Of a stretch of 64,000 nt of DNA, positions 45,001-48,000 are shown piece by piece. The DNA is taken from positions 4,588,001-4,652,000 of the forward strand of contig JAWMAR010000165.1 of NCBI GenBank assembly GCA_036785375.1. The letters are read 5' to 3'. The first letter of the stretch is position 1, and each line of letters opens with the position of its first letter. A program made the position numbers. The stretch comes from Leucoraja ocellata. Its lineage: Eukaryota.

Positions 45001-48000
45001 AGATGGCTGTAGAGGCAAAATCAATGGATATTTTTAAGGCAGATTCTTGATTAGTACGGGTGTCAGGGGTTATGGGGAGAAGGCAGGAGCATGGAGTTAG
45101 GAGGGAGAGATAGATCAGCCAAGATTGAATGGCGGAGTAGACTTGATGGGCTGAATGGTCAAATTAGGCTCCTATCACTTATGACCTTATGAAACCCACA
45201 CATTTGGGATATGAGAGAAAACCGAGCACCCCGAGGAAACCCATGTGGTCACAGGGAGAATGTGCAAACTCCACCCAGACAGCACCTGAGGTCAGGATCG
45301 AACCTGGGTCGCTGGCGCAGTGAGGCAATTGTACTACCAGCTGCACCACTGTAATGATATTGACTAGAACCTTTCTGGGGTCCTCAACTTGTCAAATGTT
45401 AAGACCTTTCTGTTATAATATCTACCACCATCCCTTTAGAGAGATTATACTGTATCAATCTATAGTTCAAAGACAAATTTACTTACTACCTGAGTGAGTT
45501 TAGGTGTGAATAATCACTGTCTTGAGCGGCGGGTCCTCATTCCCAACCAAGGAGGAAATACTTCCAGATAACAAAGCAAGTTTAATTCTGAAGAGTAATT
45601 TCTGATGGGATCTTCTTCTTGCGTCTGGCGTACACAGCTTAAAGTTGTAGGACAACTTGTTCCATCTGATCTTATCTGATTGTGCATGCCAGATTGATTG
45701 CATTTGTCGAAACAGGGCAGACCACGTGAAGCTTGCAATCTTCCACCCCTTTGATGGGATTATAGTTTACAAAAGATCTCCAAATCACAGTACAATTCAT
45801 ATACTAGAAAAACATCCCAATGAGTTGCATACAAACAAATTGTTGGCTTGACTTGGAGTTTAGAAGGATGAGAGGGTATCTCGTTGAAACATATAAGATT
45901 GTTAAGGGTTTGGACACGCTAGAGGCAGGAAACATTTTCCCGATGTTGGGGGAGTCCAGAACCAGGGGCCACAGTTTAAGAATAAGGAGTAAGCCATATA
46001 GAATGGAAACGAGGAAACACTTTTTCTCACAGAGAGTGGCAAGTCAGTGGAATTCTCTGCCTCAGAGGGCAGTGGAGGCGGGTTCTCTGGATGCTTTCAA
46101 GAGAGAGCTAGATAAGGCTCTTAAAAATTGTGGAGTCAGGAGATATGGGGAGAAGGCAGGAACGGGGATGATTGGGGATGATCAGCCATGATCACATTGA
46201 ATGGCGGTGCTGGCTCGAAGGGCTGAATGACCTACTCCTGCACCTATTGTCTATTGTCTATTGACTATTGACTATTGTCTATTGACTATGTTATTGGACT
46301 TTTTATCTCTAAGCTACAAACAGAGCAGATGTACCTTCTGACAACAATATAATCTATGGCCCATCAGCCAGAGAAAGAAAGCCTTGTGATTACGTAGCTC
46401 TTTTCTCAGCTTCAGTATTCTGGGCAATGCTGTGCAACTCTAATGAGGTATGTATGAATCGTCTTCTTCAACAATCCTTGGGGCCAAAAATAACCAGTTT
46501 CCACTCTGGTTGCATGGCTCTTGAGGTGATTGATAAGCCTGACGTTTAAGAAGGAACCGATGTGTGACCCCTAGACGGAACAGGCGATTTCTGCAGGAGG
46601 GCGGGTGGAGGGGGGGGGGTACCTGCTGCAGCTGAGAGAATAAGAGAAGATCTTGGTACATGCCACTGCTACTGGGAAGTCAGCAATGCGGCAGATCGCA
46701 TTGACGGGCCATCGCCTGGTCCTCTGAAGCCTTGTTCCATGAAAGAATTTCTTTATAAATCTGGTGACAAGTAGCATGATGGTGACCCAGCAACAACTTG
46801 GCGAGGTTCGGAGGTGAGAATGGGCCCCCAGAGTGAGGTCAGCAGAAGGTCGTCCCTCAGAACTTCGAGCTTTACAACGATGACAGCTGAGGACAACCGA
46901 GCTTGTGAAGACTTTAAAGGTAGACAAACATGCTGGAGAAACTTAGCAGGTGAGGCAGCATCTATGGAGCGAAGGAATAGGTGATGTTTCGGGTTGAGAC
47001 CCTTCTTCAGCCTGATGTCGTTGGGGGGGGGGGGGGGGGGGTGGGGTGGATGGGGGGGGGGGGGAGGAAGAAAGGAAGAGGCGGAGGCAGTGGGCTTTGG
47101 GAGAGCTGGGAAGACGAGGGGAAAGAGGAAGAATGCAAAGACCACCTGGAATTGGAGAAGTCTATGTTCATACCGCTGGGGTGTAGACTACCCAAGCGAA
47201 ATATGAGGTGCTGCTCCTGCAAATTACGGTGCAACTCACTCTGGCCAACAAGGCCCAGGACAGAAAGGTTGGATTCGGAATGGGAGGGGGAGTTGAAGTG
47301 CTGAGCCACCGGGAGTTCGGGTTGGTTATTGCGAACTGAGCAGAGGTTTTGGGCGAAGCGATCACCAAGCCTACGCTTGGTCTTATCGATGTAGAGCAGC
47401 TGACACCTAGAGCAGCGGATGCAATAGATGAGGTTGGAGGAGGTGCAGGTGAACCTCTGCCGCACCTGAAGACTTTGTTCGTTTGAGAGAGCCAGGCAGG
47501 AATCTCTGGAGACTCTCTGGGTCTGAACTTTTCAAGGACGAGCCCATTTCTTGCCGTGTCGCTCCTAATCCTCGCCCCTTTCATGGTCATAGTGATGTCT
47601 CCAGGACAGGAGGGAGGCCAGCAGTGTCGCACGGAGAGAGCATCTCAGCTGGAGGAACGCTTCTACATTGGACGTTGGAGTTTGAGCGGCCAGTCATGGG
47701 TTCTGAAGGTGCTTGGTCCCATAAATGGCAAAAAAACGTACTTATTAACGTGCTGCTCCTGATTCCACCAAATCTCCTCCGTCTATCGTACCGTGGAGCT
47801 TCTAGTATTAGCAGAAGCGGATATCACATGAACGAAAGTGTGGTCTGGTGTGTTCATGACACTGCGAATACATCAGCTCCACTCATCTAATGAACTGATC
47901 TAATTCTGGTTCATACTTCATCTTGGTTAGCATGGATGTGTTGGGCCGAAGGGGCTGTTTCCGTGCTGTATGCCATATGGAAATGATTTCCAATGTAATC

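What the first reader, a model, noticed from the sequence alone, without database searches (positions are those of the whole stretch)
45601..45760. Second, independent insertion of family 2 fixes the element boundary at the ribozyme cleavage site
Seen: opposite strand and a different target, with an 11-bp TSD (one mismatch) directly abutting G1 at 45749. P2 is perfect and P1 fully paired; P3 has one G.G mismatch. Two independent insertions with the same 5' nucleotide argue against random 5' truncation of a LINE and for a self-cleaved template. Two copies 2.5 kb apart hint at a high copy number.
Basis: seen in the sequence. Interest (0 to 1): 0.7.

Follow-up and report, generated by a model that had tools for sequence, protein, structure and literature searches.

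The report
Ribozyme-headed mini retroposon, second copy
This is one of three short mobile DNA copies in the window, each starting at the predicted cut site of a hepatitis-delta-like self-cutting RNA, a known trick of jumping genes seen here in a very small, probably fish, version.

Summary
Window 45601-45760 (minus strand) is an 11-nt target-site duplication (10/11 identical), a 138-nt element (45749->45612), then the second duplicate.

A second copy lies at 43077-43212 (+), 81% identical. It has unrelated flanks, the opposite orientation and its own duplication. It splits a LINE reverse-transcriptase ORF between residues 107 and 108 of an intact relative.

The first 54 nt fit the HDV-like double pseudoknot: G1.U36, P1 7 bp, P2 7 bp, P3 3 bp, L3 UUCACGU and J4/2 CAAA. 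P4 is nearly absent. A consensus-based descriptor hits only these copies in 128 kb and hit in 0 of 200 shuffles.

Decisive extra evidence is a third, different element at 9875-10077 (+), with a perfect 12-nt duplication. It also starts at G1 of an HDV-like ribozyme and ends in the same ACGCAAGAAGAAG. Rfam RF02682 matches it end to end at 30 bits, below the 44-bit cut-off. Against family 2 it shows 6 compensatory pair changes in P1 and P2.

Best reading: a non-autonomous, SIDE-like retroposon whose 5' end is made by self-cleavage of a read-through transcript, copied by an unidentified LINE, possibly RTE-like.

Untested: cleavage activity, copy number, partner LINE and species.

The parts
45750..45760 (-). 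5' target-site duplication of family-2 copy B (ATCCCATCAAA)
   Evidence: Read directly. It is 10/11 identical to 45601-45611. Chance rate of such a pair is 4.3e-5.
45696..45749 (-). Minimal HDV-like ribozyme of copy B (54 nt). P1 45749-45743 with 45720-45714. J1/2 45742-45741. P2 45740-45734 with 45702-45696. P3 45733-45731 with 45723-45721 (G.G mismatch). L3 UUCACGU 45730-45724. J1/4 GU 45713-45712. Linker or mini-P4 UUCGA 45711-45707. Putative catalytic C44 at 45706. J4/2 AAA 45705-45703.
   Evidence: It is the only hit of the consensus-based descriptor; 0 of 200 shuffles gave any hit. Pair counts. Own model R1 scores 73.6 bits (by construction). No Rfam hit at E<=10.
45625..45695 (-). 3' domain of copy B: a long-range stem (element nt 57-69 with 114-126) enclosing the hairpin AAGUUGU-CCU-ACAACUU (nt 92-98 with 102-108)
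   Evidence: Fold: 84-nt piece -21.4 kcal/mol, z = -2.57, 3 of 200 shuffles fold as well. In copy A the inner part of the stem is kept, with G-C/G.U exchanges. Copy A's own fold is not better than shuffles (z = -0.28).
45612..45624 (-). Shared 3' terminal motif ACGCAAGAAGAAG, including the (AAG)3 tail
   Evidence: There are exactly 3 exact matches in the window. All three sit at the 3' ends of the three elements.
45601..45611 (-). 3' target-site duplication of copy B (ATCCCATCAGA)
43077..43212 (+). Family-2 copy A (136 nt). Ribozyme 43077-43130, with U2xC35 and A11xA53 mismatches, a perfect P3 (ACC/GGT) and J4/2 CUAA. Terminal motif ACGAAAGAAGAAG at 43200-43212.
   Evidence: It is found by the relaxed descriptor only. 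R1 scores 74.6 bits (by construction).
43066..43076 (+). 5' target-site duplication of copy A (AAGTGCTTTGA). The following G at 43077 could belong to either the duplication or the element.
   Evidence: The left ORF piece ends ...VVMKCFE, which is residue 107 of P0004.
43213..43223 (+). 3' target-site duplication of copy A (AAGTGCTTT-AG, with a 1-nt deletion). Its leading AAG is ambiguous with the tail.
   Evidence: The right ORF piece starts RLIMAQ at 43224, which is residue 108 of P0004.
9875..10077 (+). Family-1 element (203 nt). HDV-like ribozyme 9875-9941: P1 GAGGCUC/GAGCCCU, P2 GUUGUCG/CGACCAC, P3 ACC/GGU, L3 UCCCCGU, J1/4 GU, P4 CUGAC-UUCA-GUCAG, C57 then AAA. Structured 3' domain. Terminal motif ACGCAAGAAGAAG at 10065-10077.
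   Evidence: Rfam RF02682 matches 9875-9941 over model positions 1-74 of 74, at 30 bits and E 5.1e-4 in a 251-nt search; the gathering score is 44. Single copy in the window.
9863..9874 (+). 5' target-site duplication of the family-1 element (AACCTCCTCTGC). The perfect 12-nt twin is at 10078-10089.
   Evidence: The next base is G on both sides, so G1 is ambiguous by 1 nt.

Best explanation
Window 45612-45749 (minus strand) is a full-length but decayed copy of a 138-nt non-coding, non-autonomous non-LTR retroposon. It is built like a SIDE (short internally deleted element): ribozyme head plus LINE-type 3' end.

Its first 54 nt encode a minimal HDV-like self-cleaving ribozyme that almost lacks P4. 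Its last roughly 80 nt form a stem-loop domain ending in single-stranded ACGCAAGAAGAAG.

Proposed cycle:
1. The element has no promoter of its own and is transcribed as part of a longer host or transposon transcript (inferred).
2. The ribozyme cuts immediately 5' of G1, creating the element's exact RNA 5' end (inferred from the fold and from the DNA boundaries).
3. A LINE reverse transcriptase recognises the 3' domain and the (AAG)n tail, and copies the RNA to its very end by target-primed reverse transcription. An RTE-like LINE is possible. This step is inferred.
4. The result is an insertion that begins at G1 and is flanked by an 11-13-nt target-site duplication (shown).

Shown here: the boundaries, the independence of the insertions, and the fold's fit and covariation. 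Not shown: cleavage, transcription and the partner LINE.
For: Boundaries and independence:
- All three TSD-flanked insertions in the window (2 of family 2, 1 of family 1) begin at, or within 1 nt of, G1 of the fold.
- Copy A cleanly splits an RT ORF between residues 107 and 108 of an 85%-identical intact relative. The right-hand piece carries RVT_1 profile positions 26-204.

Fit to the HDV-like consensus:
- The descriptor follows the published one quoted in PMC6326823 (passages read): G1-Y pair, 7-bp P1, 3-bp P3, L3 U-C-C-N-C-G-N, J4/2 C-R-R-A.
- With a single relaxation (L3 position 2 = Y) it hits only 45749(-) in 128 kb. It hit in 0 of 200 dinucleotide shuffles.
- Relaxing P1 to at least 6/7 and J4/2 to C..A adds only copy A. 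In that form 1 of 200 shuffles had a hit.

Covariation between families (alignment A3, made by MAFFT without structural input; counts):
- 91.5% of 59 cells are paired, against 32-41% when the partners are slid by 1-3 columns.
- 6 pairs changed on both sides (2 in P1, 4 in P2), against 0-1 when slid.
- 4 of 500 column shuffles reach the observed values.
- G1.U36, P3, C22-G37, J1/4 GU and J4/2 C-AAA stay constant.

Other support:
- Rfam's HDV-like model RF02682 aligns to family 1 end to end, at exactly the TSD-defined start 9875.
- Between the two family-2 copies the ribozyme is better conserved than the rest: 49/54 against 63/84 identical, Fisher p = 0.025.
- Each of the three disruptive differences is private to one copy.
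- The same 13-nt 3' end occurs on all three elements and nowhere else in the window.

Precedents:
- R2 SIDEs consist of a 5' ribozyme plus a 3' end (PMC3414825; abstract and Discussion read).
- RTE and baggins elements carry HDV-like ribozymes and no promoters (review PMC6765202; passages).
- RTE 3' UTRs are very short and end in simple repeats such as (GAA)2GA, with 10-20-bp TSDs (PMC2887409; passages).
Against: - No Rfam family reaches its gathering score anywhere in the window.
- Family 2 gets no Rfam hit even at E<=10.
- The family-1 hit is 14 bits below the cut-off. Its E-value would be about 0.1 if scaled to the whole window.
- The strict published descriptor gives 0 hits. P1.1 has only one C-G pair, with U21.U38 in family 2 and C21xU38 in family 1.
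- P4 is reduced to UUCGA in family 2.
- This particular copy has a G.G mismatch in the middle of the 3-bp P3.
- Copy A has mismatches in P1 and P2, and U in place of a purine in J4/2. Both family-2 copies may therefore be inactive.
- Nested MFE folds of the ribozyme pieces are no better than shuffles (z = +0.55 and +0.19). This is expected for a pseudoknot but gives no support.
- Covariation rests on only 3 sequences from 2 families, and my loose descriptor alone is common by chance (45 hits against 30.5 in shuffles).
- No partner LINE with the same ends is in the window.
- Nothing shows transcription or cleavage.
Confidence: 0.75

Rival explanations
1. It is an ordinary SINE. Its constant 5' end is the start site of an internal Pol III promoter, and the HDV-like fold is coincidental.
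For: A constant 5' nucleotide plus TSDs is what any SINE shows. The element is short and non-coding, and has no run of four or more T inside it. The segment GTTTCGAC contains the TTCGA core of a B box (consensus recalled from memory).
Against: - The best A-box and B-box matches have 3 mismatches each. That is no better than random 100-nt pieces of the window: 3 or fewer mismatches in 3597 of 5000 pieces for the A box and 2183 of 5000 for the B box.
- ARAGORN finds no tRNA-like gene in the window.
- No Rfam tRNA, 5S or 7SL match.
- A coincidental fold would not show 6 compensatory pair changes between two families while keeping the catalytic-core letters.
- It would not give a descriptor hit at the exact 5' end either.
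Confidence: 0.07
2. The ribozyme fold is real but is only a relic carried over from a LINE 5' UTR. The 5' ends are set by something else, for example a template-switch or truncation hot spot, and the fold now serves at most as a protein-binding or structural module.
For: Both family-2 copies carry helix mismatches. R2 protein is reported to bind its ribozyme pseudoknot independently of cleavage (PMC6765202; passage). No cleavage data exist.
Against: All 3 elements start at G1 or within 1 nt of it, which is the position where HDV-like ribozymes cut. The head is better conserved than the body. Compensatory changes show that pairing was maintained while the two families diverged.
Confidence: 0.1
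3. The two family-2 copies are 5'-truncated LINE fragments or parts of a segmental duplication, not discrete elements.
For: They lie only 2.5 kb apart. One 78-nt, 74% match exists between the wider flanks.
Against: - The copies are in opposite orientation, with different TSDs and non-alignable immediate flanks.
- The 78-nt match is a dispersed repeat with further copies in the window, and it is on the wrong strand for a shared block.
- There is no ORF. The ribozyme head is joined directly to a 3' domain.
- Copy A's insertion is exactly delimited by the interrupted RT ORF.
Confidence: 0.03

Closest known systems
R2 SIDEs and R2/R1 hybrid SIDEs of Drosophila (Eickbush & Eickbush 2012, PMC3414825; abstract and Discussion read)
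   Same: The architecture is a 5' HDV-like ribozyme joined directly to the 3' end that a LINE reverse transcriptase recognises. There is no ORF and no own promoter. The 5' end is made by self-cleavage of a co-transcript, and mobilisation is in trans by TPRT.
   Different: R2 SIDEs insert only in 28S rDNA and are co-transcribed by Pol I. The elements here sit in three unrelated, non-rDNA targets. They are much shorter (138 and 203 nt) and end in an (AAG)n tail. Family 2 has almost no P4.
RTE and baggins LINEs with 5' HDV-like ribozymes (Ruminski et al. 2011, not held and not read; cited through the review PMC6765202, passages read)
   Same: These are dispersed, promoter-less non-LTR elements that are released from read-through transcripts by an HDV-like ribozyme. 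RTE 3' ends are very short and consist of simple repeats such as (GAA)n, with TSDs of 10-20 bp (PMC2887409, passages). This resembles the (AAG)3 tail and the 11-13-nt TSDs here.
   Different: Those elements are autonomous and carry an EN-RT ORF. No RTE-like ORF with these ends is in the window, so the link to RTE is an inference only.
L1Tc, NARTc, RIME and SIDER of trypanosomatids (PMC3185411, PMC4035085: search listing and abstracts only)
   Same: Autonomous and short non-autonomous retroposons share an HDV-like ribozyme in their first 77 nt.
   Different: [quoted passage not shown] The hosts are protists with polycistronic transcription. No sequence similarity was tested.
Mammalian CPEB3 intronic ribozyme (PMC4836649, passages read)
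   Same: The family-2 core has the same letters at every L3 and J1/4 position named in the passages I read: U20, U21, C22, A23, G25, U26, G37 and U38. It has the same weak P1.1 (one G-C pair plus U-U) and a 4-nt J4/2 starting with the catalytic C.
   Different: CPEB3 is a single-copy, mammal-wide intronic sequence with a full P4. Rfam's CPEB3 model gives no hit here at E<=10. P1, P2 and P3 could not be compared, because I did not use any CPEB3 sequence. Convergence on a short core is quite possible.
Minimal HDV-like ribozymes lacking P4 (Riccitelli et al. 2014; known to me only through the citation in PMC6326823, passage read)
   Same: They have the HDV-like double pseudoknot with P4 reduced or absent.
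   Different: Those were reported from human-microbiome sequences, not from a eukaryotic retroposon. I did not read that paper.

Membership tests
HDV-like self-cleaving ribozyme | Nested double-pseudoknot topology: P1 and P2 cross, and P3 is nested inside P1 | tested here: met
   Descriptor hits. In one search, 91.5% of cells are paired and 6 pairs carry compensatory changes, against 0-1 in slid controls.
HDV-like self-cleaving ribozyme | G1-Y pair at the cleavage site, at the base of a 7-bp P1 | tested here: met
   G1.U36 is present in 3 of 3 sequences. P1 is 7/7 paired in copy B, and 6/7 in copy A and in family 1.
HDV-like self-cleaving ribozyme | Conserved L3 letters U19, C23 and G24 of the descriptor in PMC6326823. 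These correspond to U20, C24 and G25 here and give the U.G reverse wobble. | tested here: met
   L3 is UUCACGU in family 2 and UCCCCGU in family 1.
HDV-like self-cleaving ribozyme | P1.1 made of two C-G pairs between L3 and J1/4 | tested here: not met
   Only C22-G37 forms. The second position is U21.U38 in family 2 and C21xU38 in family 1, so the strict descriptor gives 0 hits. An active natural ribozyme, CPEB3, has the same arrangement of one G-C plus U-U (PMC4836649).
HDV-like self-cleaving ribozyme | J4/2 of the form C-R-R-A, with the catalytic C directly 5' of the P2 3' strand | tested here: met
   CAAA in copy B and in family 1. CUAA in copy A, which departs at one letter.
HDV-like self-cleaving ribozyme | P4 stem | tested here: inconclusive
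   Family 1 has a 5-bp P4 with a 4-nt loop. Family 2 has only UUCGA. P4 is said to be dispensable (PMC6326823 passage citing Riccitelli 2014).
HDV-like self-cleaving ribozyme | Score at or above the gathering cut-off of a curated Rfam HDV-like model | tested here: not met
   Family 1 scores 30 bits on RF02682 against a cut-off of 44, with E 5.1e-4 in 251 nt. Family 2 has no hit at E<=10. There are 0 hits at gathering over the window.
HDV-like self-cleaving ribozyme | Site-specific self-cleavage 5' of G1 that depends on the catalytic C | not testable with these tools
   This needs an in vitro cleavage assay.
SIDE-like non-autonomous non-LTR retroposon | Discrete, non-coding insertions flanked by target-site duplications at unrelated sites | tested here: met
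   All three insertions have TSDs of 11-13 nt. There is a protein-level empty site for copy A.
SIDE-like non-autonomous non-LTR retroposon | 5' and 3' ends shared with an autonomous LINE that supplies the reverse transcriptase | not tested
   No LINE with these ends is in the window. No eukaryotic genome collection was available.
Pol III SINE (tRNA-, 5S- or 7SL-derived) | Internal A and B boxes, or a head derived from a small RNA | tested here: not met
   Box matches are no better than random. No tRNA found. No Rfam small-RNA hit.
R2 element or R2 SIDE | Insertion at the specific 28S rDNA target | tested here: not met
   The targets are an RT ORF and two unrelated sequences. No rRNA match was found in the window.
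CPEB3 ribozyme family | Match to Rfam's CPEB3 ribozyme model, and a conserved mammalian intronic location | tested here: not met
   No hit at E<=10. Only the L3 and J1/4 letters agree.

The most novel reading that the evidence does not exclude
The family-2 head is a CPEB3-type HDV-like core carried by a mobile element of an early-branching vertebrate. It has the same L3 and J1/4 letters and the same weak P1.1 of one G-C plus U-U. Retroposons of this kind could be the long-sought mobile source from which the single-copy mammalian CPEB3 intronic ribozyme was exapted. On that view the vertebrate HDV-like ribozymes form one retroposon-borne lineage rather than independent inventions.
Probability: 0.07. 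Interest if true: 0.8.

Novelty: new member of a known kind. Interest (0 to 1): 0.5.

Why it matters
Ribozyme-defined 5' ends are an established strategy of promoter-less non-LTR retrotransposons. Known short non-autonomous derivatives are few: R2 SIDEs in Drosophila rDNA and NARTc/RIME in trypanosomatids.

Here two related families insert at dispersed sites in what is probably a fish genome. One of them carries an almost P4-less 54-nt ribozyme. If that ribozyme is active, it is one of the smallest natural HDV-like ribozymes in a eukaryote.

If the 3-in-64-kb density is representative, such elements would scatter very many self-cleaving sites through introns and transcripts.

The elements also offer a compact natural system for asking what a LINE reverse transcriptase needs: a head, a 3' stem and a 13-nt tail.

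My literature searches listed no vertebrate SIDE-like element with an HDV-like head. One search was badly posed and uninformative. Repbase and Dfam could not be consulted, and the key survey papers (Webb 2009, Ruminski 2011) were not held.

Tried and rejected
- Rfam at gathering thresholds over the whole window gave 0 hits. At E<=10 over 40-52 kb there were only spurious lncRNA and snoRNA matches, and over 45590-45770 there was nothing.
- My first, loose structural descriptor is uninformative on its own: 45 starts in the window against a mean of 30.5 in 10 shuffles.
- A tighter version gave one other hit, at 56143(-). That site lies in a G-rich palindromic and directly repeated stretch, and its L3 lacks the consensus letters. 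I treat it as chance.
- The G-run hits at 58260-58266(-) were also discarded.
- Minimum-free-energy folds of the ribozyme pieces are not better than shuffles. The family-1 3' domain gives z = -1.0.
- A DNA-level search for paralogous empty sites around copies A and B and around family 1 found none spanning the insertion points.
- The search for more copies or for a partner LINE found only the three elements. It used blastn, nhmmer --max, own covariance model R1 with filters off and the 3' motif. In one search the next best score was 11.4 bits at E 0.29, and 18 of the 21 listed matches are noise. In one search the count at 2 or fewer mismatches was 4 against 2.74 expected, which is not significant.
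- The L2-like LINE that hosts copy A ends in a CTTGAA-type repeat, so it is not the partner.
- Pol III boxes and a tRNA origin were rejected.
- With only the two family-2 copies there was no usable covariation.
- Pfam on 20 of the 59 ORFs of at least 110 aa gave only three weak, sub-threshold hits, so no host gene was identified.
- Papers not held: Webb 2009 and Ruminski 2011.
- Literature search was badly posed and uninformative. One search gave nothing on the origin of CPEB3.
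Full report
**1. The observation**

Read on the minus strand, the window shows ATCCCATCAAA (45760-45750), then a 138-nt block starting with G at 45749 and ending in (AAG)3 at 45612, then ATCCCATCAGA (45611-45601).

Pairs of 11-mers at least 10/11 identical at spacings of 100-250 nt occur in this window at 4.3e-5 per position and spacing (414 of 9,634,253). The duplication is therefore not a chance feature.

The window has no N. Nothing suggests a human contig. Relatives of the one clear protein that carry a source name are all from ray-finned fishes, at 43-61% identity.

**2. The second copy and independence**

blastn of 45561-45800 against the window finds one other copy, 43213-43076, at 81.4% over 140 columns and E 1.4e-33. 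That is 43077-43212 on the plus strand. nhmmer --max with a two-copy profile finds nothing else above noise.

The immediate flanks do not align. None of the four 600-nt flanks matches its counterpart. The exception is a 78-nt, 74% match (42557-42633 with 45208-45284). It belongs to a dispersed repeat with other copies in the window, and it lies on the same strand beside elements of opposite orientation. Segmental duplication is rejected.

**3. An empty site for copy A**

Copy A sits in a LINE reverse-transcriptase ORF. I searched the two ORF pieces separately; the joined ORF was neither built nor searched.
- The right piece (43224-44072) matches Pfam RVT_1 positions 26-204 of 205.
- It is 85% identical to residues 108-388 of a 522-aa protein from an unnamed source, P0004.
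- The left piece (42916-43077) ends ...VVMKCFE at residue 107 of the same protein.

No residue is lost or gained. The insert plus one duplicate copy is therefore exactly 43078-43223.

The duplication is AAGTGCTTTGA(G) against AAGTGCTTT-A(G). The target's next base is also G, so the element's first base is 43077 or 43078. The leading AAG is likewise ambiguous with the tail. Copy B has no such ambiguity at its 5' end, so the finding does fix the start at G1.

**4. The fold**

Numbering from G1 in copy B:

| Part | Positions | Sequence |
|---|---|---|
| P1 | 1-7 with 30-36 | GGGGUGG / CUGCCCU (7/7 paired, three G.U including G1.U36) |
| J1/2 | 8-9 | AA |
| P2 | 10-16 with 48-54 | GAUUGCA / UGCAAUC (7/7 Watson-Crick) |
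| P3 | 17-19 with 27-29 | AGC / GGU (G18.G28 mismatch; ACC/GGU, perfect, in copy A) |
| L3 | 20-26 | UUCACGU |
| J1/4 | 37-38 | GU |
| linker | 39-43 | UUCGA |
| catalytic C and J4/2 | 44-47 | C44, then AAA |

The descriptor quoted in PMC6326823 (passages read) fixes the following:
- a G1-Y pair;
- P1.1 of the form CC/GG;
- L3 U, C and G at descriptor positions 19, 23 and 24;
- J4/2 C-R-R-A.

Copy B meets all of these except the second P1.1 pair, which is U21.U38.

The CPEB3 ribozyme is described as having exactly that: 'one G-C and a less stable U-U'. The passages also name U20, U21, C22, A23, G25, U26, G37 and U38 (PMC4836649). All eight letters are the same in family 2.

**5. Is the fold more than chance?**

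- A loose descriptor is common by chance: 45 starts against 30.5 in shuffles.
- A tighter one leaves two hits, 45749(-) and 56143(-), against 0.3-0.8 expected. The second lies in a palindromic G-rich stretch without the core letters.
- The consensus-based descriptor in strict form gives 0 hits.
- With L3 position 2 relaxed to Y it hits only 45749(-), and hit in 0 of 200 shuffles.
- Relaxed further, it adds only copy A; 1 of 200 shuffles then had a hit.

The relaxation was made after seeing the sequence. However, the hit also coincides with a 5' end that the duplications define independently.

Between the two copies the head is better conserved than the body: 49/54 against 63/84 identical, p = 0.025. 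Each disruptive difference is private to one copy. Two copies alone give no covariation.

**6. A third element supplies the covariation**

It is flanked by a perfect 12-nt duplication, AACCTCCTCTGC. The next base is G on both sides, so its G1 is also ambiguous by 1 nt.

It begins with a 67-nt HDV-like ribozyme:
- P1 GAGGCUC / GAGCCCU;
- P2 GUUGUCG / CGACCAC;
- P3 ACC / GGU;
- L3 UCCCCGU, which equals the consensus;
- J1/4 GU;
- a real P4, CUGAC-UUCA-GUCAG;
- C57 followed by AAA.

It ends in ACGCAAGAAGAAG, the same 13 nt as copy B; copy A has ACGAAAGAAGAAG. These are the only three exact matches to the pattern in the window.

Rfam's HDV-like model RF02682 aligns to 9875-9941 over model positions 1-74 of 74. 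The score is 30 bits and E is 5.1e-4 in the 251-nt search, below the gathering score of 44. Its start coincides with the start defined by the duplication.

A MAFFT alignment of the three ribozymes was scored with the pseudoknotted structure:
- 91.5% of 59 cells are paired, against 32-41% with partners slid by 1-3 columns;
- 6 pairs changed on both sides (2 in P1, 4 in P2), against 0-1 when slid;
- 4 of 500 shuffles reach the observed values.

The core letters stay fixed while the helices vary. That is the signature of a maintained HDV-like fold, although it rests on only three sequences.

A covariance model built from them finds only these three in the window: 74.6, 73.6 and 58.1 bits, with the next best at 11.4 bits. 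The three matches are by construction.

**7. The rest of the element**

In copy B the 3' 84 nt fold into a long-range stem enclosing a 7-bp hairpin, leaving ACGCAAGAAGAAG single-stranded (z = -2.57). Copy A keeps the inner stem, with G-C/G.U exchanges. Its own fold, however, is not better than shuffles. The 3' domain of family 1 is also closed by a long-range stem, but not significantly (z = -1.0).

No A or B boxes better than random were found. No tRNA was found, and there is no ORF.

**8. Mechanism**

The element is most likely a SIDE-like non-autonomous retroposon:
- it is transcribed by read-through (inferred);
- it is cut 5' of G1 by its own ribozyme (inferred);
- it is copied in trans by a LINE enzyme that recognises the 3' domain and tail (inferred);
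- it then integrates with 11-13-nt duplications (shown).

RTE LINEs are a reasonable candidate partner. They are reported to carry HDV-like ribozymes and no promoter (PMC6765202). They also have very short 3' UTRs made of simple repeats such as (GAA)2GA, with 10-20-bp duplications (PMC2887409). No partner is in the window.

Copy A lies in sense orientation inside an L2-like LINE fragment. That fits co-transcription, but it is a single case.

**9. Comparison and novelty**

The closest known elements are the R2 SIDEs (PMC3414825). They have the same head-plus-tail logic but are specific to rDNA.

The elements here are dispersed, smaller, probably from a fish, and in family 2 nearly lack P4. I file this as a new member of a known kind.

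The literature searches listed no such vertebrate element. Repbase, Dfam, eukaryotic genome collections, paper supplements and the two key survey papers could not be consulted.

Copy number, activity, partner and species remain open.

Noticed in passing
window 9863-10089 (+): A third ribozyme-headed short element, 203 nt, with a perfect 12-nt TSD. It has an HDV-like ribozyme with a full P4 that matches Rfam RF02682 below threshold. It carries the same 3' terminal 13 nt as family 2.
   Followed up: yes
element position 2: window 45748 (-), 43078 (+), 9876 (+): Position 2 of P1 is G, U and A in the three copies, while its partner C35 never varies. Two of the three copies therefore have a mismatch next to the cleavage site. 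This could reflect low fidelity or microhomology joining at the 5' junction during integration, which would give daughter copies an impaired ribozyme.
   Followed up: no
window 9857-9864, 45754-45766 (-), 43061-43068: Two of the three insertions have TATA immediately before a TSD that starts with A (GGTATA|AACC and ACTATA|ATCC). The third has GATG|AAGT. In every case the TSD starts with A or AA, which could pair with the (AAG)n tail during priming.
   Followed up: no
window 42916-44550 (+): A 5'-truncated L2-like LINE fragment hosts copy A. Pfam gives RVT_1 plus a PF09004 match. It is 85% identical to an unnamed 522-aa protein and at most 61% identical to named teleost proteins. It ends in a CTCTTGAATCTTGAA-type repeat near 44531-44547.
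   Followed up: partly
window 56000-56145 (-): A G/C-rich stretch with long inverted and direct repeats (GAGACGTCCTGTCC...GGGGGGTG.CCGGAGACGTC occurs twice). It gave a spurious HDV-descriptor hit at 56143. Its nature is unknown.
   Followed up: partly
window 27027-27737 (-): A 237-aa open frame has a weak, sub-threshold Pfam Phage_integrase match (E 5.4e-4, 20.2 bits against a cut-off of 27.1). It may be a remnant of a tyrosine-recombinase element of the DIRS or Crypton type.
   Followed up: no
window 47023-47064, 54494-54514, 57442-57473: Long homopolymer runs: about 42 G (82% matches), 21 G and 32 C.
   Followed up: no
window 17167-17288 and 20075-20128: Perfect tandem duplications with a 64-nt unit (1.9 copies) and a 26-nt unit (2.1 copies).
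   Followed up: no
window 45013-45305, 45976-46272: Weak Rfam 'SOX2OT_exon3' and 'MEG8_1' matches (17-19 bits against a cut-off of 70) fall on dispersed repeats that have many copies in the window. They are almost certainly repeat-derived noise.
   Followed up: partly
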